Assembly (NCBI GenBank): GCA_021537435.1
Contig: GCA_021537435.1_3050.1
Direction: 5' to 3' (one strand)
DNA length: 64,000 bases
DNA from: a phage
Positions 3,281-59,584 of this stretch are shown here, in pieces (within the stretch, counting starts at the first letter, position 1; each line of letters begins with the position of its first letter). A program made the position numbers and the translations under genes. The notes under the pieces were generated by a model that searched no databases, had not been told where the DNA came from, and saw nothing but the letters and a program-made list of their open reading frames with translations.

Positions 3281-3783
3281 TTAAAAATATTTTTTAAAAC
3301 TCATCATAACTTTATCATCAACATCATTATCAATCTGTGCTACAAGGTAAGATGACAGTTCTACTTCTTGTGGCGCGGATTGAACATTATCAGAATTAAG
3401 ATATTCACGAATCCAAGGATACGGATGTTTAACCGGAGCATCAGTAATTGGGCATGGAAGACCGCACTGTTTCATACGAGATACAGTTAAGTAATCAATA
3501 AAGCTCCACATGCTATTTGTATTTAATCCAGGAACATCGCCATCTTTAAATAAATGAACTGCCCAGTCTTTTTCTTGACGGTTAACTTCCATGAAAATAT
3601 CAACTGCTTCTTGTTCACACTCTTGAGCAATTTTAACCCATTCATCGCCATCAGTACCAGATTGAAGTTGACGAATAATATATTGGGTGCCTTTAAGGTG
3701 AAGCTGTTCATCGCGTGCAATGAACTTCATAATCTTGGCATTACCTTCCATGATTTCCATGTTTTTATGGAAGTTGAAAGTAC
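3281..3783 (-). CDS. nrdB: ribonucleotide reductase small subunit, exon 2
   Basis: in-frame ...TFNFHKNMEIMEGNAKIMKFIARDEQLHL... to stop; R2 C-terminal half; exon sizes sum to 388 codons. Confidence 0.85.
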
Positions 3784-4873
3784 CGTTATGTTCGATTGAG
3801 CTCGCTAATTCTCAATCCGTTCTCTTATGAACTGCTACATATTACTATGCAGACCAGACTATATCACAATCCCAGAGGGATTCTCCCCATTTCGAGTCGC
3901 TTGACCCTACGTCCGAAGACTAGTCGTTGAACCTTGCTTTGCAATTGTCGCCGTGCCATCGTTTATATGTTGATGGTGATAAATCTTTCTTATCACAATA
4001 TGGACAATTCAATTGAATTCTATTTGGATTTAATTTACATCTGTCATTATGTTTTAGATAAAATCCAGGACCTTTACCAATGTGACCACAGAAATCACAT
4101 GTGATTTCTTTTTGTGCAGGATGGGTCCCGTTCTTAACCATTTCTAATGTTTTTGCTGATGTTCTTTTCTTATGGTCTTCTGATAAGAAATGATGTGAAC
4201 CGTCATTTACCCGTTTTGATTGAGTTTCTGACTGCATTTTACCACCGCAAAATACATGAGTACCTTCTTTTATAGCTGCAATATTACGTTCTTTAACTTT
4301 TGCAATATGCTCAGCTTGTTGAAAATTATGTATACCTAATGCAACTCTATTTAAATTAGATTTACGCTGTATTTCACCATCTAAAAGATGAAATGTACCA
4401 TTTTCTATCTTAGATTTAATAGAGGCAATATTTTTAGCTCGTACTTCAGGGATATTAAAAATCTGGATTTCTCTAGATTTTGCGGCTTTAGAAGCTAATT
4501 CAGAAATTTCTTCAGGAGAATATTTCATTCTAAGCTTTATAGCATGACAAGCCTGGTAATCTTTTTGAGCTAAATGTATATCATAATGTTCCTGTATAGA
4601 AAGGCACATCAAATTATCTAAATCATTATTTTCACGGTTACCGTCTTTATGATGGATTTCGTATGTTCTTCCATCAGAATCTTTAGGTATAGGTCCGTTA
4701 GCATCTATCCAAATTTTTCTATAGTTCAATTGTGCATCCTCTTAAAAGTATAATCATATTTATATTATACTAATTAAAGGTGCAAGCAAAACCTTGGCTG
4801 CTAGTTTTCCATAAAGGACTTTCCAGCAATTAAAGGAGTTTTCGATAAACGTTACCGTTTAAAGGCGCATTTT
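3784..4873 (-). ncRNA. group I self-splicing intron in nrdB (about 1090 nt) carrying I-TevIII ORF
   Basis: NrdB reading frame interrupted after ...RFYVSFA plus split Cys codon; exon 1 ends in T and intron ends in G; HNH ORF inside. Confidence 0.7.
3920..4729 (-). CDS. intron-encoded HNH homing endonuclease I-TevIII, full length (269 aa)
   Basis: N-terminal HNH motif EIHHKDGNRENNDLDNLMCLSIQEH; C-terminal Cys-rich zinc finger; inside nrdB intron. Confidence 0.8.
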   Translation of the reverse strand: MNYRKIWIDANGPIPKDSDGRTYEIHHKDGNRENNDLDNLMCLSIQEHYDIHLAQKDYQACHAIKLRMKYSPEEISELASKAAKSREIQIFNIPEVRAKNIASIKSKIENGTFHLLDGEIQRKSNLNRVALGIHNFQQAEHIAKVKERNIAAIKEGTHVFCGGKMQSETQSKRVNDGSHHFLSEDHKKRTSAKTLEMVKNGTHPAQKEITCDFCGHIGKGPGFYLKHNDRCKLNPNRIQLNCPYCDKKDLSPSTYKRWHGDNCKARFND

Positions 4874-5537
4874 ACGCAAAAGATACATAAAAACGAATAG
4901 CTTCCAATGCGTTGATTACATGGAGGCAAAGGTAAAGAGATTTCATCAGATCTCGTTTAGCTCTTTGCTCAACGTCTTTATCAGCTAGAATTAGACCTTG
5001 GTCTTTATAATATTCAACCATGTCTTTAGCATTTTCCCATTCACGGGTTTTAACCAAGACATCATCATAATAGCGACCGATAGATTCAGCACGTTTCATG
5101 ATAGCTTCATCTAATACAATCTCATCAAATACCTTTGATGGATCAGTATAAAGATTTCGCATGATATGAGTATATGAACGACTGTGAATAGTTTCACTAA
5201 AAGTCCATGTAGCAACCCATGTATCAAGGCTTGGGTCTGAAATTAATGACATAAGTACAGCAGATGGCGCACGACCCTGAATGCTATCCAAAAGTGATTG
5301 ATACTTCAGGTTATTAGTAAAAATATTCTGCTGATACTGAGGAAGTTTATTAAATTGTGCAGCATCCATCATCAAGTTTACTTCTTCAGGACGCCAGAAA
5401 AATGATAATTGCTTTTCAGTCAAATCTTCAAAAACTTTATGGCGTTGAATATCATAACGCGCAATACCAAGACCTGAACCGAAGAACATAGGTTCTTTTA
5501 AAACATCAACTGGATTTGTATTAAAAACTGTAGACAT
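4874..5537 (-). CDS. nrdB: ribonucleotide reductase small subunit, exon 1
   Basis: MSTVFNTNPVDVLKEPMFFGSGL...LHVINALEAIRFYVSFA; R2 iron-centre region. Confidence 0.85.
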
Positions 5538-5571
5538 ATTATTCTCGCTTATTATAGGTTTAAATATTTAA

Positions 5572-6363
5572 TCACATATTATGTATAAGCACTTCGGTCT
5601 GAAATGATGCACCCTTCTTTTGCTTCCTATACATGGTTTCAAAATATTCAATTTTGAAATTATTAGAAAGGGCCCAATCTTTTAAAATATAATTATTAAT
5701 ATCGTCTGATAGATTATTAGTGATAATAAATTTAGACTTCGATTGTTTAATTTTGTCTAATAATTCTAATTCATCCTTTTCTTCCCAGCCTGAATATTTA
5801 AATTTAGTAGAAAGATACGGCGGGTCAATGAATAAATTTTTGTTTTCAAAATCCAAATCTCTGAATGATTTATTACTAAATGTAAATCGGTGCTGTCTAT
5901 TTTTAAATTCAGAAAATTTATCCTGCTGAGACTTATTAAAAGAAGTTCTGGAATACTTGGCTCTATTGGCGAAAGCCGCGTTATAATTCCCATTACTAGA
6001 AAATCGGATTAACGAACTGAATGAAAATAAATGTAGAACATAAAGATATAATCCGTTTTTGGTTTTATCGTATTCTTTTGACAGATTATAAAAAGGTGCT
6101 GAATCTTTGTCATTCAAATTAAAATCTTCAATAATTTTAACTATATCATTAATTGAAGATGATTTCATCTTTTTATACATGTCTATAAGAGGAGTATTAA
6201 TATCATTACATATAACATCTCTCTGACAATTCATAGAAAATCCAAGACCACCACAAAAAGCATCCAAAACAGGCTTATCGTCAAAGCGGTTTGAAAATTG
6301 TCTAATAAATGGCATATACTTATGTTTTGCACCTGGATATGTTATGGCAGGTAGGTCTTTCAT
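5572..6363 (-). CDS. Dam-family DNA N6-adenine methyltransferase (263 aa)
   Basis: SAM-binding motif DAFCGGLG near N-terminus and catalytic DPPY motif; region visibly AT-richer than flanking nrd genes. Confidence 0.75.
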   Translation of the reverse strand: MKDLPAITYPGAKHKYMPFIRQFSNRFDDKPVLDAFCGGLGFSMNCQRDVICNDINTPLIDMYKKMKSSSINDIVKIIEDFNLNDKDSAPFYNLSKEYDKTKNGLYLYVLHLFSFSSLIRFSSNGNYNAAFANRAKYSRTSFNKSQQDKFSEFKNRQHRFTFSNKSFRDLDFENKNLFIDPPYLSTKFKYSGWEEKDELELLDKIKQSKSKFIITNNLSDDINNYILKDWALSNNFKIEYFETMYRKQKKGASFQTEVLIHNM

Positions 6364-6406
6364 ATTATTTCTCGTTGTTGGTGACTCGTCCGTGAGTCAA
6401 ATTATA

Positions 6407-8671
6407 TCATAATTTACAGGATGAACAATCTTCAGCTTTTGGAGTTTCTATTTCATAATCATCAGTACCAGAACCATCACGGGTATTATGATAATAGAAA
6501 TTTTTTCCGCCAAAATACCAAAAGTACAAAAGGTCATCAATCATTACAGACATTGGAACCTTTCCTTTTGGAAAAATCTGCGGGTCATAATATGTATTTG
6601 CTGAAGCTGATTGACATACCCATTTAAGCATAATAGCTACCTGCGTAAGATAAGGTTTATTACCTTTCTTAGCTAATTTCCATGTATAATCATATAGGTC
6701 TATGTTATGTTCAATATTGGGCACGACTTGATTAAAGGAACCCTCTTTTGATTCTTTAACCGAGACTGGTCCACGTGGAGGCTCGATACCGTTTGTACTG
6801 TTAGAAACTTGGGAAGATGACTCACATGGCATAAGTGCTGATAATGTGCTATTACGGATGCCAAAGAGCTTAAGGTCTTCCCGCAGCGACGACCAGTCAC
6901 AAACGTATTTTGGAGCTGCGATTTGGTCAATCTTTTTATTGTACCAGTCGATAGGTAGTTCGCCTCGAGACCAACGAGTGTCTGAATAATATTCGCAAGG
7001 TCCTTTTTCTTTGGCGAGCTTAATGGATGCTTTAATGAGTCCATACTGTAATCTCTCAAATAGTTCATGTGTTAAATCGTTAGCATCTTCATAAGAAGCA
7101 AAGTTACTTGCCAGCCAAGCTGCATAGTTAGTAACACCTACACCAAGGTTACGACGCTTTTTAGCTTTTTCTGCTTCAGGAACTGGATATCCTTGGTAAT
7201 CCAAAAGATTATCAAGAGCACGAACTTGAACTTCTGCCAATTCATTAATTTTATCTTGGTCTTGCCAATCGAAGTTATCCAACACAAATGCAGATAACGT
7301 ACACAATCCAATTTCAGCATCAGGGCTATTCACATCATTTGTTGGAATAGCAATTTCACAGCATAAGTTACTCTGACGAATAGGTGCCTTTTCACGAATA
7401 AACGGAGTATAGTTATTCGTATTATCAATGAACTGTACATAAATCCTTGCTGTTCCTGAACGTTCAGTCATGAGCAATTCAAATAGTTCACGGGCTTTAA
7501 TACGCTTTTTACGAATATTAGGGTCTTTTTCTGCCGCTTCGTATAATTCACGGAAACGGTCTTGGTCTTTAAAATAAGAATAATAAAGCTCTCCACCCAT
7601 TTCATGGGGACTGAACAAAGTAATGTAATCGTTCTTTCCAAAACGTTCCATCATCAAATCATTCAGTTGAACACCATAATCCATATGACGAATGCGGTTT
7701 TCTTCTACGCCTTTGTTATTTTTCAAAACGAGAAGATTTTCAACTTCCAAATGCCAAATAGGATAATAAGCAGTAGCAGCGCCGCCACGAATTCCACCCT
7801 GTGAACATGATTTAACTGCAGTCTGAAAATGTTTCCAAAAAGGAATAACACCGGTATGGCGTACTTCACCCATGCCAATCTTAGAACCTTCGGCACGAAT
7901 CATACCAACGTTAATACCAATTCCAGCACGTTTGGAGATATATTCAACAATTGAAGCGGAAGCCTTATTGATAGACTTCAATGAATCTCCTGCCTCAATA
8001 ACAACACATGAACTAAACTGTCGAGTCGGAGTACGGCAACCAGCCATAATAGGAGTTGGCAATGAAATCTGTCGAGTAGATACTGCTTCATAAAAACGGA
8101 TAACATGTTTTAATCTATCAACAGGTTCGTCTTGATGCAATGCCATTCCAATAGCCATAAATGCAAACTGTGGAGTTTCATAAATTTGACCAGTGGTTTT
8201 ATCTTTAACTAAATATTTTTCTTTTAATTGCATCGCCCCGGAATAAGTAAATTCCATATCCCGCTCGTGCTTAATTTTTGATTCTAAAAATGTAATTTCT
8301 TCTGCTGAATATTTTGACAACAATTCAGGGTCGTATTTACCTTCATTTACACAGTAAGAAATATGGTCAATAAATGAACGTGGTTCATACTGCCTGTAAA
8401 CATGCTTACGAAGAGCGAACATTAAGCAGCGTGCAGCTACATATTGGTAATCAGGCTCTTCAACTGAAATAGAATTCGCAGCAGCCTTAATGACAATAGT
8501 CTGAATATCATCAGTTGTCATTCCATCACGGAGATAAGATTTAATATTTTCATATAATTCATAAGGATCTACTGATGTTCCCTCAGCTGCCCAAGATAAA
8601 ACTTTAATAATTTTTTGTGGGTCAAAGCTCTGAGAAACACCACTACTTTTGATAACATTAATTAATTGCAT
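6407..8671 (-). CDS. nrdA: ribonucleotide reductase large subunit
   Basis: 754-aa ORF; ATP-cone N-terminus and class I RNR catalytic motifs (NLCCEI, CESS); matches T4 NrdA length. Confidence 0.9.
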   Translation of the reverse strand: MQLINVIKSSGVSQSFDPQKIIKVLSWAAEGTSVDPYELYENIKSYLRDGMTTDDIQTIVIKAAANSISVEEPDYQYVAARCLMFALRKHVYRQYEPRSFIDHISYCVNEGKYDPELLSKYSAEEITFLESKIKHERDMEFTYSGAMQLKEKYLVKDKTTGQIYETPQFAFMAIGMALHQDEPVDRLKHVIRFYEAVSTRQISLPTPIMAGCRTPTRQFSSCVVIEAGDSLKSINKASASIVEYISKRAGIGINVGMIRAEGSKIGMGEVRHTGVIPFWKHFQTAVKSCSQGGIRGGAATAYYPIWHLEVENLLVLKNNKGVEENRIRHMDYGVQLNDLMMERFGKNDYITLFSPHEMGGELYYSYFKDQDRFRELYEAAEKDPNIRKKRIKARELFELLMTERSGTARIYVQFIDNTNNYTPFIREKAPIRQSNLCCEIAIPTNDVNSPDAEIGLCTLSAFVLDNFDWQDQDKINELAEVQVRALDNLLDYQGYPVPEAEKAKKRRNLGVGVTNYAAWLASNFASYEDANDLTHELFERLQYGLIKASIKLAKEKGPCEYYSDTRWSRGELPIDWYNKKIDQIAAPKYVCDWSSLREDLKLFGIRNSTLSALMPCESSSQVSNSTNGIEPPRGPVSVKESKEGSFNQVVPNIEHNIDLYDYTWKLAKKGNKPYLTQVAIMLKWVCQSASANTYYDPQIFPKGKVPMSVMIDDLLYFWYFGGKNFYYHNTRDGSGTDDYEIETPKAEDCSSCKL

Positions 8672-8988
8672 AAGTCCTCAACTTGAAAATCGTCTTTAAA
8701 CAATCGGTTAACTATATGAGCTATTATATCACCATGACACGGCTTTGGTTTACATGTGCATCCTAGCCTCATTCCACGTAAAGGCTCTAAATGTGCTTTA
8801 GTTATTTCTCCGGATTTAATTCGACGTATAAAATCTTTTTTGAATAATTCAATGGCAGCCTCCCGGCTGCCAGCATCTTTACCGACGTAATTTCCCCAAA
8901 ATGTACCACGGTGAATATTAACATCAAAGTCGGATTTATATTTATTCACTACTTGGCATAGACGGCCCGCGCGGTGATAATTCGTCAT
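8662..8988 (-). CDS. hypothetical protein (T4 nrdA.1 position)
   Basis: 108-aa ORF overlapping nrdA start. Confidence 0.5.
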
Positions 8989-9540: not shown

Positions 9541-10556
9541 CATTATGTTCAGATAAGGTCGTTAATCTTACCCCGGAATTATATCCAGCTGCATGTCACC
9601 ATGCAGATCAGACTATATCTCCAACTTGTTAAAGCAAGTTGTCTATCGTTTCGAGTCACTTGACCCTACTCCCCAAAGGGATAGTCGTTAGGCATTTATG
9701 TAGAACCAATTCCATTTATCAGATTTTACACGATAAGTAACTAATCCAGACGAAATTTTAAAATGTCTAGCTGCATCTGCTGCACAATCAAAAATAACCC
9801 CATCACATGAAATCTTTTTAATATTACTAGGCTTTTTACCTTTCATCTTTTCTGATATTTTAGATTTAGTTATGTCTGAATGCTTATGATTAAAGAATGA
9901 ATTATTTTCACCTGAACGATTTCTGCATTTACTACAAGTATAAGCAGAAGTTTGTATGCGAACACCGCACTTACAAAACTTATGGGTTTCTGGATTCCAA
10001 CGCCCGTTTTTACTTCCGGGTTTACTGTAAAGAGCTTTCCGACCATCAGGTCCAAGTTTAAGCATCTTAGCTTTAACAGTTTTAGAACGTTTCTTAATAA
10101 TTTCTTCTTTTAATGGATGCGTAGAACATGTATCACCAAACGTTGCATCAGCAATATTGTATCCATTAATTTTAGAATTAAGCTCTTTAATCCAAAAATT
10201 TTCTCGTTCAATAATCAAATCTTTCTCATATGGAATTTCTTCCAAAATAGAACATTCAAACACATTACCATGTTTGTTAAAAGACCTCTGAAGCTTTATA
10301 GAAGAATGGCATCCTTTTTCTAAATCTTTAAAATGCCTCTTCCATCTCTTTTCAAAATCTTTAGCACTTCCTACATATACTTTATTGTTTAAAGTATTTT
10401 TAATCTGATAAATTCCGCTTTTCATAAATACCTCTTTAAATATAGAAGTATTTATTAAAGGGCAGTCCTACAATTTAGCACGGGATTGTCTACTAGAGAG
10501 GTTCCCCGTTTAGATAGATTACAAGTATAAGTCACCTTATACTCAGGCCTCAATTA
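9541..10556 (-). ncRNA. td group I intron (1016 nt) carrying I-TevI ORF
   Basis: exon 1 reads ...QRSVDVFLG then in-frame TAA; intron 5' end TAATTGAGGCCTGAGTATAAGGTGACTTATAC... as in T4 td intron; ends ...ATAATG before exon 2. Confidence 0.85.
9688..10425 (-). CDS. intron-encoded GIY-YIG homing endonuclease I-TevI (245 aa)
   Basis: MKSGIYQIKNTLNNKVYVGSAKDFEKRWKRH... GIY-YIG motif; zinc finger and C-terminal DNA-binding region. Confidence 0.9.
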   Translation of the reverse strand: MKSGIYQIKNTLNNKVYVGSAKDFEKRWKRHFKDLEKGCHSSIKLQRSFNKHGNVFECSILEEIPYEKDLIIERENFWIKELNSKINGYNIADATFGDTCSTHPLKEEIIKKRSKTVKAKMLKLGPDGRKALYSKPGSKNGRWNPETHKFCKCGVRIQTSAYTCSKCRNRSGENNSFFNHKHSDITKSKISEKMKGKKPSNIKKISCDGVIFDCAADAARHFKISSGLVTYRVKSDKWNWFYINA

Positions 10557-38845: not shown

Positions 38846-40666
38846 CTATTGGCTCATCCATTCTTTACGAAGATCAGCATTATCTCCCATGAGCATTTCA
38901 AAAAGCTCTTTCCAGTTCTCAGGAAGTTTAACAACATCATATACTGGGTTTTGAATCATCTCACGATATTCAGATTTTTCCAAAGAGCCAAGTCCTTTAA
39001 TATAACGGATGCTATGTTTAGGTAGAGCATCTTTGGCACTCTCATATTCAGCGACTGTATAAAACCATTCTTGTTTTTTACCGACCTGAGCGATGATTAC
39101 AGGAGTTTTGACAAAGCGAATTCTTCCTTGCTCAAACAATTCTGGCCAATTACTAAAAAATCCGAGCAGAGAAGGATAAATGCTTCCTAGACCATCATGG
39201 TCAGCATCAGTCATAATAGCGATATTATGATAATTCAAGTTTTCAGCTTTTTCACCGAGAACTAGACCAGTGATTGCGCAAATATCAAATAGTTCTTTGT
39301 TTTTAAGCATATCTGCATAAGACATACCCCAACTGTTGAGAACTTTACCACGTAATGGATAACCACCATGAAGTTCTTTATCACGAACATCAATAAGATA
39401 TCCGATAGCAGAATCACCCTCAGTCAAGAAAAGAGTAGTGTCAGCATCTTTACCGCAAAGATTCGCTTTAATATGTTTATGAACCTTTGCCTTAGAGGCC
39501 TTTTTAGCTGCTTTAGTTTCAGCTGCTTTTTCTGCTGCCAATTTACGAGCCAAGGCAGCTTCAATAATTGGCATCAAAATAGCTTCATTATTTAGAATAG
39601 CGCGTGAAATCTTTTTAGCATCAAGTTGAATATGACTACGAATTTCACCAAATGGAGAAGTCAAACGCTCTTTAGTTTGAGAGTCAAATCGCATGTTTTT
39701 CATATCGCGAACAAACATAACGATAGTCAAACATTCTTTAACACGTGCTTTAGTTACATCAATTTTGAATTTACGTTTGATTTGTGGAATAAGGTCTTCA
39801 CAAATATCATCCATAACACAGTCAATGTGATGGCCACCATTCTTAGTATGAATGTTATTGACGTACGTCAACTGACGAAAACCATCCGGTGAACGACCAA
39901 CCGCAATAGAACAATTTTCTTGTTCTTGAACAATAGCATGTTCATCATACTGTCGTGCATATTTCTTAAAATTGCCCTGAACCTTTTTACCATTAAAGGT
40001 AAATTGAATATCAGGATAAACAACTGCGAGTGTCTGGAGACGATCCAGTGTAATGTCAAGATAAACTTGGGACAGCTCATTAGTTTCAAATGACATAAAA
40101 TCAGGAATGAAAGTAACACGAGTTCCTTTCCATTTTCCAGGAATATCTTCCCATGATTTATTTTCCATGCCATTTGAACAACGAACTACAATATTATTTT
40201 GACCGTCGCCAGTTTCACCAACAAACATCACAGAAAAAATGTTTGTCAAACTAGAACCAACACCATTCATACCGCCAGTGACGCGTTCTTTATCATCACC
40301 AAAGTTACCACCTGCTTTTGGAATAGTCCATGCAGCAACAGGACCAGGAATTTCTTCACCAGTAGGTGTTTTAACCATAGCCTGTGGAATACCACGACCG
40401 TTATCTTCAACTGTTACCTGATTATTTTTAATAGTAACATTAATTTTATTTGCGAATTTAAACTTAGTACGAATACCTTCATCTACTGAGTTATCGATAA
40501 TTTCATCAATAAGCTTAACAAGACCAGGTACATACTGAACACTTTCCCATTTACCAAACAGAAAGCGCTCATGCATTTCATTAGCAGAAGAGCCAATGTA
40601 CATGCCGCTACGCTTTTTGATATGTTCAATATCGCTCAGAATTTTAATTTCATTCTTAATCATCAC
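38846..40666 (-). CDS. 39: DNA topoisomerase II large subunit gp39 (GyrB-like), single uninterrupted 606-aa ORF
   Basis: GHKL ATPase motifs (DNGRGIP) and TOPRIM region in one frame; no separate gene 60. Confidence 0.9.
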   Translation of the reverse strand: MMIKNEIKILSDIEHIKKRSGMYIGSSANEMHERFLFGKWESVQYVPGLVKLIDEIIDNSVDEGIRTKFKFANKINVTIKNNQVTVEDNGRGIPQAMVKTPTGEEIPGPVAAWTIPKAGGNFGDDKERVTGGMNGVGSSLTNIFSVMFVGETGDGQNNIVVRCSNGMENKSWEDIPGKWKGTRVTFIPDFMSFETNELSQVYLDITLDRLQTLAVVYPDIQFTFNGKKVQGNFKKYARQYDEHAIVQEQENCSIAVGRSPDGFRQLTYVNNIHTKNGGHHIDCVMDDICEDLIPQIKRKFKIDVTKARVKECLTIVMFVRDMKNMRFDSQTKERLTSPFGEIRSHIQLDAKKISRAILNNEAILMPIIEAALARKLAAEKAAETKAAKKASKAKVHKHIKANLCGKDADTTLFLTEGDSAIGYLIDVRDKELHGGYPLRGKVLNSWGMSYADMLKNKELFDICAITGLVLGEKAENLNYHNIAIMTDADHDGLGSIYPSLLGFFSNWPELFEQGRIRFVKTPVIIAQVGKKQEWFYTVAEYESAKDALPKHSIRYIKGLGSLEKSEYREMIQNPVYDVVKLPENWKELFEMLMGDNADLRKEWMSQ

Positions 40667-51764: not shown

Positions 51765-52283
51765 TCAATAACCTCGGTCTTGACGAGCGAAGTTTTCAGC
51801 ATTTTTCAGATAATAAAGTTTAAAGATTTCTTCAGCCGTAAGACCGAGACCTTGGAACATGTTCAGAACGAAATGAAGAATATCAATCATTTCGAATTTA
51901 ATTTCCAACTGGTCTTGTGGAGATAAGTCAGTAATCAGAGTTTCACGACGTTCACCGTGTTGCGACTTCCACGGCTTCCATACAGCAGATGCATCTTTTT
52001 CGCCATTGCTCATACCACCAAGAGAAGTCAGAAGTTCGCGGAATTCATCATCAATATAATCTTTCTGATTACGCAACCAATCAACAACTTCACCTGCAGT
52101 AGCCAAATCATCAGGATGACGGTTATATTCAGGTTTATCTTTAGCTAAACGAACCTGCAGAGATTTCTGCATATCAAGCATAACCTGCAGCGGGTCTTTT
52201 TCATCACCGAGAATATCCCAGTATTCATTTTGAGCTTTATCAGCACCTTCGATCAGTTGACTACATTCGTTAAAGTATGCCAT
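51765..52283 (-). CDS. 56: dCTPase/dUTPase gp56
   Basis: start MAYFNECSQLIEGADKAQNEYWDILGDEKDPLQVMLDMQ...; track ORF extended upstream. Confidence 0.85.
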   Translation of the reverse strand: MAYFNECSQLIEGADKAQNEYWDILGDEKDPLQVMLDMQKSLQVRLAKDKPEYNRHPDDLATAGEVVDWLRNQKDYIDDEFRELLTSLGGMSNGEKDASAVWKPWKSQHGERRETLITDLSPQDQLEIKFEMIDILHFVLNMFQGLGLTAEEIFKLYYLKNAENFARQDRGY

Positions 52284-52354
52284 TATTTTTCCTTTCAATT
52301 CATGGGTTAGTAGATTAATTATACAATAAATATATAAAGCAATAAGGAGGATAT

Positions 52355-52555
52355 ATGGTACAAAAATTAATGGCACTTGTTAATGCCATAAAAGGTAATA
52401 AAAAACGTATAGCTTTTACTATTTCTGCTATGGTAGGAATTTTACTCTGGAATTTTGTTTTATCACCAATTGCTATTGCTCATGGTGTTAATATTCCAGT
52501 AATTACTCTTGATACATTCGTAGATTTAGCATTTGCTTTGGTTGGGTTAATTTAA
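52355..52555 (+). CDS. small membrane protein (66 aa) on the opposite strand
   Basis: strong RBS AAGGAGG seven nt before ATG; two hydrophobic helices. Confidence 0.5.
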   Translation: MVQKLMALVNAIKGNKKRIAFTISAMVGILLWNFVLSPIAIAHGVNIPVITLDTFVDLAFALVGLI

Positions 52556-58004: not shown

Positions 58005-58853
58005 TTAATCAACTGCTATTGGATGAATAGCATTAAACTTATGAAACGCTTCTGATTTTTCTTTGCGCGAAACACACATGCGAAGAACCTTTAATGGCTC
58101 ATCTTCTTCACCCAACGATTTTCTCTTTTCAATATTCGATGTTTTCCAACGAGCTTGCTCTGGAAACTCTCTATTGATTTGCTCAAGAGCTCTATTATGT
58201 TTTGAATTACTACGAATTGAACTACATCCGCCGGGAGCCTGTGCTTTTCCAGATACAACCAGATATTTGAACAAGGCCAAATGCGGATAACCTTGATTAA
58301 TTAAATTGAGAAATGCATACATATCTTCGCATAAATCAATTTTTCCATACCCAATTTGTTCTGTCGTAAGTTTTCCAAGGTCATACCATGTATTCGTGAA
58401 TCCATATGAATTTTCACGATAATTACCCCAAGATGAAGTAATTTTAAAAATAGGCAGACGAGCATGACCATGATAATACCCGCAATCCATGGCATCTTCA
58501 ACGTATTGAATCAATTCATAGAACTGTTCACGGGTTAATTGATTAATTTTATCTACGCAGCGACGATCATCTTTCTTTCGCATTGAACTCATACGAATAG
58601 TAGTATCATCATCAATCATCCAAATTCGTTGACCTGCATACATATCAGTAATTGCTTTACGAGTACCAGCAATTCCATTAACATCATCAGGAATAGTTAT
58701 AATTTTAGCTCTAGACCCATAAGCGTCATAATAAGCTTTTTCTTCGTGTTCACGTACTACAATATGTGGTTCATAATCAGTCGGAAACATATCAAGGGCA
58801 GAAACTGCCCCTACGCGTTGATAGCTTGGAATTACGAATTGAATCATTTCCAC
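58005..58853 (-). CDS. DNA glycosyltransferase, GT-A fold with DxD motif (likely T2/T6-type beta-glucosyl-HMC alpha-glucosyltransferase)
   Basis: 282-aa ORF with QRIWMIDDDTTI; sits at the T4 beta-gt locus between 42 and uvsX but does not resemble T4 beta-gt. Confidence 0.6.
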   Translation of the reverse strand: MEMIQFVIPSYQRVGAVSALDMFPTDYEPHIVVREHEEKAYYDAYGSRAKIITIPDDVNGIAGTRKAITDMYAGQRIWMIDDDTTIRMSSMRKKDDRRCVDKINQLTREQFYELIQYVEDAMDCGYYHGHARLPIFKITSSWGNYRENSYGFTNTWYDLGKLTTEQIGYGKIDLCEDMYAFLNLINQGYPHLALFKYLVVSGKAQAPGGCSSIRSNSKHNRALEQINREFPEQARWKTSNIEKRKSLGEEDEPLKVLRMCVSRKEKSEAFHKFNAIHPIAVD

Positions 58854-59584
58854 TCACCGTTATAATCTTTTTTCGCAATATGAGTTTCGCCAGTTTTCCA
58901 CCAATGGTCAACCAAATAAAAATGACGGGAATACACGTGAAGGCTCCCGACATTCCATATAATGGAACCTGCTTTATACTGACGAGTTGAATCACCTGCA
59001 TTCAAATCAGATACTAATTTATCTAGTACGTATTTTTGCCATGCATAATCATTACGGAATCCGAAGACCACGTCATTTGAACGCATGCTTACTACTGCAT
59101 TGACTTTCTTATCACGAATCAGGTACTGTACTGTATTCGTACACATGAAATCTGACATACCATCTTTATTGTAGTCAAACTGCATGGATGGACGAGTATA
59201 AATCATGATACCACGTCGAGAATCAGGATTTTGACCAAGTTCAGCTAAACACATATCATACTGGGCATAGTTATCTTCTGACCAGATGGCCCAACCATAA
59301 TTCGAGTTAATTTCGCCTTTAGAAGATGCTACCTGTTGCCAAATCTTCGGTGTTTCGCCCGGAATATCTTTAACAAACAAACTTTTAGATTTATACCATT
59401 CAAGTTCACGCTGAATGTATTCATCATTAAGAGCGCCAAAAATAAACGGTTCATCTGCTACAAATGATGCGCCAATAATTTCAATAGTTTTAACGCCAGT
59501 TTTATCAATTACGAAATCTTTTTCCTTTAACGCAATTCCCAAATGAAGACGAGTTTCTTCAACTGTCAAAGAGTCATTAATCAT
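58844..59584 (-). CDS. 42: dCMP hydroxymethylase gp42
   Basis: 246-aa ORF MINDSLTVEETRLHLGIALKEKDFVIDKTGVKTIEIIGASFV... Confidence 0.9.
   Translation of the reverse strand: MINDSLTVEETRLHLGIALKEKDFVIDKTGVKTIEIIGASFVADEPFIFGALNDEYIQRELEWYKSKSLFVKDIPGETPKIWQQVASSKGEINSNYGWAIWSEDNYAQYDMCLAELGQNPDSRRGIMIYTRPSMQFDYNKDGMSDFMCTNTVQYLIRDKKVNAVVSMRSNDVVFGFRNDYAWQKYVLDKLVSDLNAGDSTRQYKAGSIIWNVGSLHVYSRHFYLVDHWWKTGETHIAKKDYNGEWK

What the first reader, a model, noticed from the sequence alone, without database searches (positions are those of the whole stretch)
5572..6363. Dam-family adenine methyltransferase gene sitting in the nrdA-nrdB spacer
The ORF between the two ribonucleotide reductase subunit genes carries the SAM-binding DAFCGGLG and catalytic DPPY motifs of alpha-class N6-adenine methyltransferases and is visibly more AT-rich than nrdA and nrdB. 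In T4, as I recall, this spacer carries the mobE homing-endonuclease gene and dam lies between genes 56 and 61; here the 56-61 interval has no methyltransferase. So this looks like either a relocated or an independently acquired orphan methyltransferase at a known insertion hotspot. Its target site and its relationship to T4/T2 Dam cannot be determined by eye.
Basis: partly seen in the sequence, partly recalled or inferred. Interest (0 to 1): 0.7.

Follow-up and report, generated by a model that had tools for sequence, protein, structure and literature searches.

The report
Second-lineage Dam-like methyltransferase between nrdA and nrdB
A T4-like phage that lacks the usual T4 dam gene carries a distantly related, intact DNA adenine methyltransferase gene between its two ribonucleotide reductase genes; the gene is real, conserved and rare, but it is a known kind of gene that several GenBank records already annotate as a methylase.

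Summary
Window 5572-6363 (minus strand) is an intact 263-aa ORF between nrdA and nrdB exon 1. It has the DAFCGGLG and DPPY motifs, a Pfam D12 hit and a predicted T4-Dam fold. The window has no dam between genes 56 and 61.

The protein is not a relocated T4 dam. It is 34% identical to T4 Dam and falls below NCBIfam's Dam cut-off (94 bits against 114.85; T4 Dam scores 239.5). It belongs to a fully supported separate clade whose sister is an Alcaligenes phage Dam.

Every clade member examined, more than 25 genomes and contigs from at least three T4-like genera plus one unclassified phage, sits in this same spacer. About 1% of relatives carry it. The spacer is otherwise empty (about 80%) or holds a mobE-type homing endonuclease (about 15%).

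dN/dS of 0.07-0.17 indicates a working protein. Its divergence tracks nrdA between genera, apart from one clear allele transfer in phage BGP, which also keeps the canonical dam.

The DNA-recognition hairpin keeps the Arg that reads the GATC guanine. It has Ala in place of Pro126 and a 7-residue insertion at the first-base-pair contact, so the target site (GATC or a relaxed variant) is unresolved.

Most likely it is an orphan protective N6-adenine methyltransferase. This is a new member of a known kind, of modest interest.

The parts
5572..6363 (-). Coding sequence of the 263-aa Dam-like (D12 class) N6-adenine DNA methyltransferase, stop codon included
   Evidence: ORF list. PF02086 E 5.5e-24. 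T4 Dam is the best solved relative, E 4e-38. AF2 model pLDDT 87, TM 0.83 to T4 Dam. dN/dS 0.07-0.17.
6241..6264 (-). Codons for DAFCGGLG, the motif I (FxGxG) SAM-binding loop, residues 34-41
   Evidence: F36 and G38 are invariant in alignment A1.
5815..5826 (-). Codons for DPPY, catalytic motif IV, residues 180-183
   Evidence: Invariant in alignments A1, A2 and A3.
5944..6021 (-). Codons for the DNA-recognition beta-hairpin region, residues 115-140 (FSSLIRFSSNGNYNAAFANRAKYSRT). It holds R120 (= T4 R116 / Eco R124), A130 (= T4 P126 / Eco P134) and a clade-specific insertion of about 7 residues.
   Evidence: Alignment A1 and residue mapping. Roles of the EcoDam residues are from PMC4417163.
6361..6373 (-). 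Translation-initiation region of the methyltransferase (GAGAAATAATATG). It is a near-copy of the nrdB initiation region.
   Evidence: Sequence. Comparison with the empty site of JS98.
6382..6399 (-). Conserved stem-loop (TGACTCACGGACGAGTCA) just after the nrdA stop codon and a TATAAT (6401-6406). The insertion lies 3' of it.
   Evidence: Present in empty-site phages (WilhelmHis, JS98) and in all carriers. Klebsiella phage PhiKpNIH-6 has a compensatory change, GGCTC...GAGCC. Folds at -7.5 kcal/mol. No U-tract, and not scored as a terminator.
5535..5571 (-). Methyltransferase-nrdB spacer with the second copy of the initiation region (GAGAATAATATG) and the nrdB start codon (ATG TCT ...)
   Evidence: The TCT second codon co-occurs with the methyltransferase; empty Tequatrovirus sites have AGC and mobE sites have AGT.
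6407..8671 (-). nrdA (context: upstream flank, same transcription direction)
   Evidence: 754 aa, 98-100% identical to NR1 and T4-type NrdA.
4872..5537 (-). nrdB exon 1 (context: downstream flank). It is followed by a group I intron carrying a full-length 269-aa HNH endonuclease (3920-4729).
   Evidence: The same layout is seen in L014 and BGP.
52281..52551 (-). Gene 56-gene 61 interval, the canonical T4 dam site, with no methyltransferase gene
   Evidence: tblastn with T4 Dam, the ORF list and blastn against T4.

Best explanation
The ORF encodes an active, orphan, alpha-class N6-adenine DNA methyltransferase of the Dam/D12 superfamily. It belongs to a lineage separate from the canonical T4/T2 Dam, and this lineage lives only in the nrdA-nrdB spacer of T4-like phages.

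Expression (inferred). The gene is read as part of the td-nrdA-nrdB transcription unit and has no T4 middle or late promoter motif of its own. It is translated from its own Shine-Dalgarno/ATG, which is a duplicated copy of the nrdB initiation region.

Chemistry (inferred from family). The enzyme binds SAM through DAFCGGLG, flips the target adenine into the DPPY pocket and methylates N6. It reads DNA with a beta-hairpin, as T4 Dam and EcoDam do.

Target (inferred, unresolved). R120 is kept; its EcoDam equivalent reads the guanine paired with the C of GATC. Also kept are L118 and the intercalating F115. This points to a GATC-related core. The Pro at the third-base-pair contact is Ala, and 7 residues are inserted where T4 Dam and EcoDam contact the first base pair. 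Recognition is therefore probably relaxed or altered at the outer positions.

Role (inferred). Self-methylation of phage DNA to blunt host restriction. In this phage it fills the place of the missing canonical dam.

History (shown). It is an old, rarely retained accessory gene at a homing-endonuclease hotspot, an alternative occupant to mobE, and is occasionally exchanged between genera by recombination in the conserved nrd flanks.
For: Family and fold:
- PF02086 85.7 bits.
- phrog_56 'DNA methyltransferase', E 9e-36.
- T4 Dam is the top PDB sequence hit, E 4e-38, full length.
- AF2 pLDDT 87; Foldseek top hits are T4 Dam (TM 0.83), then EcoDam and DpnM.

Motifs: G11, K13, F36, G38, D54 and DPPY are invariant with T4 Dam and EcoDam.

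Functional constraint: dN/dS is 0.07-0.17 between alleles. The ORF is intact in all carriers.

Separate lineage:
- 34% identity to T4 Dam.
- In a search of 1.84 billion cluster representatives, only its own cluster scores below 1e-30; the next best is 116 bits.
- NJ tree: the spacer clade is supported 200/200 and its sister, Afa-NA1 Dam, 198/200. T4 Dam and the canonical Dam of BGP fall in a different clade.
- BGP carries both genes.

Fixed locus: nrdA-MT-nrdB in Tequatrovirus, Gelderlandvirus, Marfavirus, fDHCT2 and all metagenomic contigs examined.

Orphan status: the flanks are always nrdA and nrdB, and no nuclease gene is adjacent.

Age and exchange: MT dS is close to nrdA dS between genera (window against CF-SP2: 1.15 and 1.35). 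BGP is discordant (MT dS 0.88 against nrdA 0.145 to the window; MT 92% nt identity to CF-SP2).

Expression: there is no terminator and no late or MotA-box motif on the sense strand of 5300-8800. A GAG lies 7-8 nt before the ATG.
Against: No methylation data exist for any carrier. The one study of NR1 and BGP DNA looked only at cytosine modifications (PMC13390438).

The clade scores below NCBIfam's curated Dam cut-off (94.1, and 71-91 for relatives, against 114.85). Membership of the GATC-specific Dam subfamily is therefore not established.

The BGP/CF-SP2-type alleles have Lys in place of the guanine-reading Arg. The target may therefore differ even within the clade.

The gene is absent from about 99% of relatives, so any benefit is conditional.

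Loss of the canonical dam is common. About 182 records carry a Dam at least 90% identical to T4's, out of several hundred Tequatrovirus records. The apparent 'replacement' is therefore not statistically supported: 1 of 6 Tequatrovirus carriers keeps the canonical dam, similar to the background.
Confidence: 0.85

Rival explanations
1. It is a strict GATC-specific Dam isozyme: a plain functional equivalent of T4 Dam that happens to sit at another locus.
For: T4 Dam is the closest solved relative. R120, L118, F115 and S116 match the T4/EcoDam hairpin residues that read GATC (residue roles from PMC4417163). The window lacks the canonical dam. GATC is the most depleted tetranucleotide in the window, O/E 0.30, which fits GATC being a site under selection.
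Against: The clade is below the curated Dam cut-off. Pro126/Pro134 is replaced by Ala or Ser. Seven residues are inserted at the first-base-pair contact. Some alleles have R to K at the guanine contact. BGP keeps both genes, which is harder to explain if they are redundant. The GATC depletion is the same in T4 and so carries no information about this enzyme.
Confidence: 0.4
2. It is a relaxed or altered-specificity adenine methyltransferase, for example a GAT/ATC core, a naturally 'hypermethylating' Dam. This would give broader anti-restriction cover than canonical Dam.
For: Ala or Ser occupies the position of T4 Pro126 throughout the clade. The hairpin insertion is shared with the sister Afa-NA1 enzyme. 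I recall that the T4 damh hypermethylating mutant is P126S (Miner, Schlagman and Hattman 1989), but I could not verify this in the library. Dam-related enzymes with extremely relaxed specificity exist (PMC3299994). First-base-pair contacts are not conserved in the Dam family (PMC4417163). BGP carries this gene alongside the canonical dam.
Against: The inference rests purely on sequence. Position 126 also varies (S, K, Q, A) among relatives of unknown specificity on the T4-Dam side of the tree. There are no biochemical data.
Confidence: 0.4
3. It is a selfish passenger with little benefit to the phage. It would be kept because it sits within the co-conversion range of neighbouring homing endonucleases (I-TevIII in the nrdB intron, I-TevI in td) and spreads by hitch-hiking.
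For: The nrd region is a documented endonuclease hotspot with long co-conversion tracts (PMC2790892). The window has a full-length I-TevIII-like gene 0.8-1.5 kb away and I-TevI 3.3 kb away. The BGP allele was clearly transferred between genera. Polymorphisms at the start of nrdB travel with the gene.
Against: Most carriers (NR1, ECO07P2, L015-L019, fDHCT2) have no nrdB intron, and several have no td intron. A dN/dS near 0.1 over deep divergence indicates selection on the protein itself. A frequency of about 1% is not what an efficient drive would give.
Confidence: 0.15
4. It is a decaying or inactive remnant, or a mis-called ORF.
For: Rare distribution. The lowest GC in the window.
Against: The ORF is intact at full length, with all catalytic motifs, in every carrier. 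dN/dS is 0.07-0.17. The fold is predicted with confidence. GC3 equals that of the flanks.
Confidence: 0.03

Closest known systems
Bacteriophage T4/T2 Dam (M.EcoT4Dam; PDB 1YFJ, 1YFL, 1Q0S)
   Same: Same superfamily (PF02086), same alpha-class motif order, same size (263 against 259 aa) and same predicted fold (TM 0.83). It is an orphan methyltransferase of a T4-like phage. It shares the hairpin residues F, S and R (T4 F111, S112, R116) and the DPPY and FxGxG motifs.
   Different: Only 34% identical. It falls in a separate, well-supported clade and scores 94 against 239.5 bits on the curated Dam model. P126 is Ala, and 7 residues are inserted near R130. The locus differs (nrdA-nrdB spacer, not 56-61). 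It can coexist with the canonical dam, as in BGP.
Alcaligenes phage Afa-NA1 'DNA adenine methylase Dam' (PV550095.1)
   Same: The closest relative outside the clade: 40.6% identity, sister in the tree 198/200. It shares the insertion in the recognition hairpin and the 'FILTN' type C-terminal region.
   Different: It comes from an unrelated 78-kb phage, sits next to topoisomerase genes rather than nrd genes, and is also uncharacterised.
E. coli Dam and DpnM (GATC methyltransferases)
   Same: Same fold and the same catalytic and SAM-binding motifs. The Arg equivalent to EcoDam R124 is conserved.
   Different: 16-18% identity. The EcoDam first-base-pair contacts K9 and Y138 are not conserved (T8 here, plus the insertion). 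P134 is not conserved.
mobE, the free-standing HNH homing endonuclease of the T4 nrdA-nrdB spacer
   Same: It occupies exactly the same intergenic niche, in the same orientation, embedded in the nrdA-nrdB transcription unit. The two are alternative occupants and were never seen together.
   Different: The window gene has no nuclease domain and no evidence of self-mobility. It is a methyltransferase.

Membership tests
Pfam PF02086, D12 class N6-adenine-specific DNA methyltransferase | HMM score above the gathering threshold over the full domain | tested here: met
   85.7 bits against 22, residues 9-245 of 263, profile positions 1-251 of 253.
Pfam PF02086, D12 class N6-adenine-specific DNA methyltransferase | Motif I (FxGxG) and motif IV (DPPY) in alpha-class order, with the target-recognition region between them | tested here: met
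   D34-AFCGGLG-41, recognition hairpin at 115-140, D180-PPY-183.
Pfam PF02086, D12 class N6-adenine-specific DNA methyltransferase | Dam-type three-dimensional fold | tested here: met
   AF2 pLDDT 87, pTM 0.86. Foldseek top hits are T4 Dam (E 1e-21, TM 0.83), EcoDam and DpnM.
Pfam PF02086, D12 class N6-adenine-specific DNA methyltransferase | SAM-dependent transfer of a methyl group to adenine N6 in DNA | not testable with these tools
   No methylome or biochemistry exists for any carrier. PMC13390438 analysed cytosine modifications only.
NCBIfam TIGR00571, Dam family site-specific (GATC) methyltransferase | Score above the curated cut-off of 114.85 bits | tested here: not met
   Window 94.1 bits; clade relatives 71.5 and 87.4; Afa-NA1 91.4; T4 Dam 239.5.
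NCBIfam TIGR00571, Dam family site-specific (GATC) methyltransferase | Arg that reads the guanine of the fourth base pair (EcoDam R124 / T4 R116) | tested here: met
   R120 in the window allele; Lys in the BGP/CF-SP2-type allele represented by P0003. Residue role from PMC4417163.
NCBIfam TIGR00571, Dam family site-specific (GATC) methyltransferase | Third-base-pair contacts (EcoDam L122 and P134 / T4 M114 and P126) | tested here: inconclusive
   L118 is kept. The Pro is replaced by A130, or by Ser in other alleles.
NCBIfam TIGR00571, Dam family site-specific (GATC) methyltransferase | First-base-pair contact (EcoDam K9 and Y138 / T4 R130) | tested here: inconclusive
   T8 lies at the K9 position. 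A 7-residue insertion (NRAKYSR) sits at the R130/Y138 position, with Arg residues nearby but ambiguous alignment. This contact is not conserved in the family in any case (PMC4417163).
NCBIfam TIGR00571, Dam family site-specific (GATC) methyltransferase | Methylation of GATC | not testable with these tools
   Needs DpnI/MboI digestion or a SMRT/nanopore methylome.
Orthologue of the canonical T4/T2 dam gene | Location between genes 56 and 61 | tested here: not met
   The gene lies between nrdA and nrdB. The 56-61 interval of the window is empty of dam.
Orthologue of the canonical T4/T2 dam gene | Groups with T4 Dam in a phylogeny, with high identity | tested here: not met
   34% identity. Separate clade, 200/200 for the spacer clade and 198/200 with Afa-NA1. 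T4 Dam groups with the canonical Dam of BGP 200/200.
Free-standing homing endonuclease cassette (mobE type) of the nrdA-nrdB spacer | Encodes an HNH or GIY-YIG nuclease | tested here: not met
   The only Pfam hit is PF02086.

The most novel reading that the evidence does not exclude
The spacer clade is a natural Dam variant with relaxed or altered specificity. It has Ala or Ser at the position whose Pro-to-Ser change, as I recall, makes T4 Dam hypermethylating, and it has an extended recognition hairpin. Under this reading it gives broader protection against restriction than canonical Dam, competes with mobE for the same intergenic niche, and moves between T4-like genera by recombination in the nrd flanks.
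Probability: 0.3. Interest if true: 0.5.

Novelty: new member of a known kind. Interest (0 to 1): 0.3.

Why it matters
T4 Dam is a textbook enzyme, and the nrdA-nrdB spacer is a textbook homing-endonuclease site. This finding shows that the spacer has a third state, a methyltransferase. It also shows that T4-like phages carry at least two unrelated Dam lineages, which can coexist in one genome.

If the enzyme's target differs from GATC, it would add a new specificity to the Dam family. It would also give a natural test of which hairpin residues set specificity.

For phage therapy and defence-system work, it marks a small set of Tequatrovirus, Gelderlandvirus and Marfavirus phages whose adenine methylation state, and hence sensitivity to restriction and to m6A-dependent nucleases, may differ from close relatives.

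The gene is, however, already annotated as a methylase in several records, and its kind is well known.

Tried and rejected
- **Relocated T4 dam:** rejected by 34% identity, the separate clade and coexistence with the canonical dam in BGP.
- **Recent foreign acquisition inferred from low GC:** rejected as evidence. GC3 equals that of the flanks, and MT dS tracks nrdA dS between genera.
- **Complementary distribution with canonical dam:** not supported. Most Tequatrovirus records lack the canonical dam anyway, and 1 of 6 carriers has both.
- **Own T4 late or middle promoter, or a terminator between nrdA and the gene:** none found by motif search. One sigma-70-like match inside the ORF (6113-6085, 11 of 12) is within the shuffle expectation for the region.
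- **GATC depletion as a clue to the target:** GATC is the most depleted 4-mer (O/E 0.30), but it is equally depleted in T4, so this is uninformative.
- **Flanking direct repeats by the gapless repeat finder:** nothing was returned because the two copies differ by an indel. The duplication was seen only by direct comparison with the JS98 empty site.
- **Literature checks:** the T4 damh P126S paper and the T4 Dam-DNA structure paper are not in the held library. T4 residue roles are therefore mapped from the EcoDam paper through the alignment.
- **Technical failures:** local MAFFT runs timed out twice. They were replaced by pairwise alignment and by the align_proteins tool.
- **Word-index protein search:** it returned few hits and missed T4 Dam. 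The exhaustive search was used instead.

Full report
**What is there.** Window 5572-6363 on the minus strand is a 263-aa ORF with an ATG start. It lies 43 nt downstream of the nrdA stop codon (nrdA 6407-8671) and 34 nt upstream of the nrdB start codon (nrdB exon 1, 4872-5537). All three genes read in the same direction. The protein matches Pfam PF02086, the D12 class of N6-adenine DNA methyltransferases, at 85.7 bits against a cut-off of 22. It also matches PHROG 56, 'DNA methyltransferase'. DAFCGGLG is residues 34-41 and DPPY is residues 180-183.

GC content is 29.0%, against 37.5% for nrdA and 35.7% for nrdB exon 1. The region holds the lowest-GC 792-nt windows in the 64 kb. Third-position GC is 0.25, the same as in the flanks. 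The AT-richness therefore reflects a Lys/Asn/Phe/Ser-rich protein and not foreign codon usage.

These were checked against the T4 record. mobE and nrdB.1 lie between nrdA and nrdB, and dam lies between genes 56 and 61. In the window the 56-61 interval aligns to T4 on both sides, and dam is cleanly missing. tblastn with T4 Dam finds only the nrdA-nrdB ORF.

**Relationship to T4 Dam.** T4 Dam is by far the closest solved structure by sequence: E 4e-38 and 134 bits over the full length, against 30 bits for DpnM and 25 bits for EcoDam. It is also the closest by predicted fold. The AlphaFold2 model has pLDDT 87, and Foldseek gives TM 0.83 and E 1e-21 to T4 Dam, followed by EcoDam and DpnM.

Identity to T4 Dam is nevertheless only 34%. 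On NCBIfam's curated Dam model, T4 Dam scores 239.5 bits. The window protein scores 94.1 and its relatives 71-91, all below the 114.85 cut-off.

An exhaustive HMMER search of 1.84 billion cluster representatives found only the protein's own cluster below 1e-30. The next hit, a T4-Dam-like sequence, scores 116 bits.

In a neighbour-joining tree of 40 sequences, the spacer enzymes form a clade with 200/200 bootstrap support. Their sister is the Dam of Alcaligenes phage Afa-NA1 (198/200). T4 Dam groups with the canonical Dam of phage BGP (200/200) in a different clade. This is a second Dam lineage and not a moved copy of dam.

**Distribution.** Of about 806-811 phage records with megablast-detectable nrdA/nrdB, eight hold the gene in the spacer. 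tblastn adds Klebsiella phage PhiKpNIH-6, where the gene is split by the record ends. The carriers are:
- Tequatrovirus: NR1, T4_ev240, ECO07P2, 236Ecol005PP, EP02SG and BGP
- Gelderlandvirus: CF-SP2
- Marfavirus: PhiKpNIH-6
- unclassified: fDHCT2

Every metagenomic or assembly contig that encodes a clade member shows the same nrdA-MT-nrdB order. More than 25 contexts were examined, with no exception.

A spread sample of the related records gives a rough census of the spacer. About 80% are empty (51-64 nt). About 15% hold a mobE-type endonuclease (about 640-730 nt; T4, T6, U115, EC121, slur04, FelixPlatter). About 1% hold the methyltransferase. Gelderlandvirus S16 has an endonuclease at the site where its relative CF-SP2 has the methyltransferase. 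The literature describes the nrd region as an endonuclease insertion hotspot (PMC2790892).

**History.** Between genera, the gene's divergence matches that of nrdA. Window against CF-SP2 gives MT dS 1.15 and nrdA dS 1.35. Window against PhiKpNIH-6 gives 74% and 72% nucleotide identity. This fits long residence at this locus with frequent loss.

BGP is the exception. Its nrdA is 97% identical to the window's, but its methyltransferase is only 80% identical to the window's and 92% identical to that of CF-SP2. MT dS to the window is 0.88 against 0.145 for nrdA. This is an inter-genus allele transfer.

The insertion point can be read from empty sites. In Dhakavirus JS98, the conserved stem-loop after nrdA is followed by CACTAACAAATGAGAATAACATG-TCT (the nrdB start). 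In carriers, a copy of this initiation region precedes both the methyltransferase and nrdB. Carrier Tequatroviruses have ATG TCT as the nrdB start, like JS98, CF-SP2 and PhiKpNIH-6. Empty Tequatrovirus sites have ATG AGC, and mobE sites have ATG AGT. The exchanged unit therefore reaches into the first codons of nrdB.

**Is it functional?** dN/dS between alleles is 0.07-0.17. The ORF is intact in all carriers, and all catalytic and SAM-binding residues shared by T4 Dam and EcoDam are present. No terminator and no T4 late (TATAAATA) or MotA-box motif lies on the sense strand between 5300 and 8800. Expression by read-through of the nrdA transcript, using the gene's own ribosome-binding site, is the simplest model. 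This is an inference.

**Target site.** EcoDam's DNA contacts are taken from PMC4417163: R124 reads Gua4, L122 and P134 contact the third base pair, Y119 intercalates, N120 also contacts DNA, and K9 and Y138 contact the first base pair. Mapped through the alignment, the window protein compares as follows:

| EcoDam / T4 Dam residue | Window protein |
|---|---|
| Y119 / F111 | F115, kept |
| N120 / S112 | S116, kept |
| L122 / M114 | L118, kept |
| R124 / R116 | R120, kept (Lys in the BGP/CF-SP2 allele) |
| P134 / P126 | A130 (Ser in other alleles) |
| K9 (EcoDam only) | T8 |
| Y138 / R130 | about 7 residues (NRAKYSR) inserted here |

The hairpin insertion is shared with Afa-NA1. A GATC-related core is therefore plausible, but strict GATC specificity cannot be assumed.

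From memory, and not verifiable in the held library, the T4 damh hypermethylating mutant is P126S. If so, the natural Ala or Ser at this position would be suggestive of relaxed specificity. Dam relatives with very relaxed specificity are known (PMC3299994). GATC is the most depleted tetranucleotide in the window (O/E 0.30), but it is equally depleted in T4, so this says nothing about this enzyme.

**Prior knowledge.** Several GenBank records already call the gene 'DNA adenine methylase' or 'putative methylase'. The only paper found that handles carriers (NR1 and BGP) analysed cytosine modifications. It mentions the canonical Dam-like gene of BGP but not the spacer gene (PMC13390438). No paper found describes the locus or the enzyme.

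**Verdict.** It is an orphan Dam-superfamily adenine methyltransferase from a lineage distinct from T4 Dam. It is an old but rare alternative occupant of the nrdA-nrdB hotspot, is under purifying selection, and its target specificity is unresolved. It is a new member of a known kind, of modest interest.

Noticed in passing
window 6382-6406 (minus strand); also L003, L022, L007: A TATAAT directly after the nrdA stop codon, followed by a stem-loop (GACTC-ACGGAC-GAGTC), is conserved in both empty-site and occupied phages of several genera. Klebsiella phage PhiKpNIH-6 has a compensatory double change (GGCTC...GAGCC). It has no U-tract, so it is not a classic terminator. It may be a promoter with a 5' stabilising hairpin, or a processing signal for nrdB.
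   Followed up: partly
window 6361-6373 and 5535-5546; L006, L008, L022: The methyltransferase and nrdB are each preceded by near-identical initiation regions (GAGAAATAATATG and GAGAATAATATG). The JS98 empty site CACTAACAAATGAGAATAACATG appears on both sides of the gene in CF-SP2 and PhiKpNIH-6. This looks like a duplication of about 20 nt of the nrdB ribosome-binding region, made at insertion.
   Followed up: partly
window 3920-4729 (minus), inside the nrdB intron (about 3761-4871): The nrdB intron carries a full-length 269-aa HNH endonuclease (I-TevIII type). In T4 this gene is a truncated, defective 97-codon remnant.
   Followed up: no
window 9688-10425 (minus): The td gene is split by an intron encoding a 245-aa GIY-YIG endonuclease (I-TevI type). 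Two intron endonucleases therefore flank the methyltransferase within 3.5 kb.
   Followed up: no
window 38846-40666 (minus): Topoisomerase gene 39 is a single 606-aa ORF. The T4 arrangement, with a split 39/60 and the 50-nt translational bypass, appears to be absent here.
   Followed up: no
window 52355-52555 (plus strand): A 66-aa hydrophobic ORF lies antisense in the 61-56 interval. Its DNA is conserved in T4 next to dam. It is annotated as 'Phage protein' in BGP (BGP_063), but it is not annotated in the T4 stretch fetched here.
   Followed up: no
whole window; L001, L002, L004, L006, L009, L011: GATC is the most under-represented of all 256 tetranucleotides: 66 observed against 219 expected, O/E 0.30. 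It is similarly depleted in T4 and other Tevenvirinae segments (0.07-0.38), but not in the Klebsiella Marfavirus segment (0.79) or the Alcaligenes phage segment (0.72).
   Followed up: partly
L011 4404-5743 (phage BGP, OZ035849.1 33403-34742): [quoted passage not shown] BGP thus has two Dam-type genes and a possible nuclease partner for one of them.
   Followed up: no
window 4938-5537 versus L004 and L005 (nrdB 5' 600 nt): The first 600 nt of nrdB are much more diverged between close Tequatroviruses than nrdA is: 91-92% against 97-98% nucleotide identity, with dN/dS 0.32 for window against BGP. This is the region where MobE nicks nrdB according to PMC2790892, so it may be a mosaic left by repeated homing and co-conversion.
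   Followed up: no
window 58005-58853 (minus): A 282-aa ORF lies next to the dCMP hydroxymethylase gene (58844-59584). Its size matches my recollection of the T2/T6-type beta-alpha glucosyl-HMC glucosyltransferase rather than T4 beta-gt; no homology search was run. The close relative NR1 has gentiobiosyl-hmC DNA (PMC13390438). The methyltransferase therefore probably acts on heavily glycosylated DNA.
   Followed up: no
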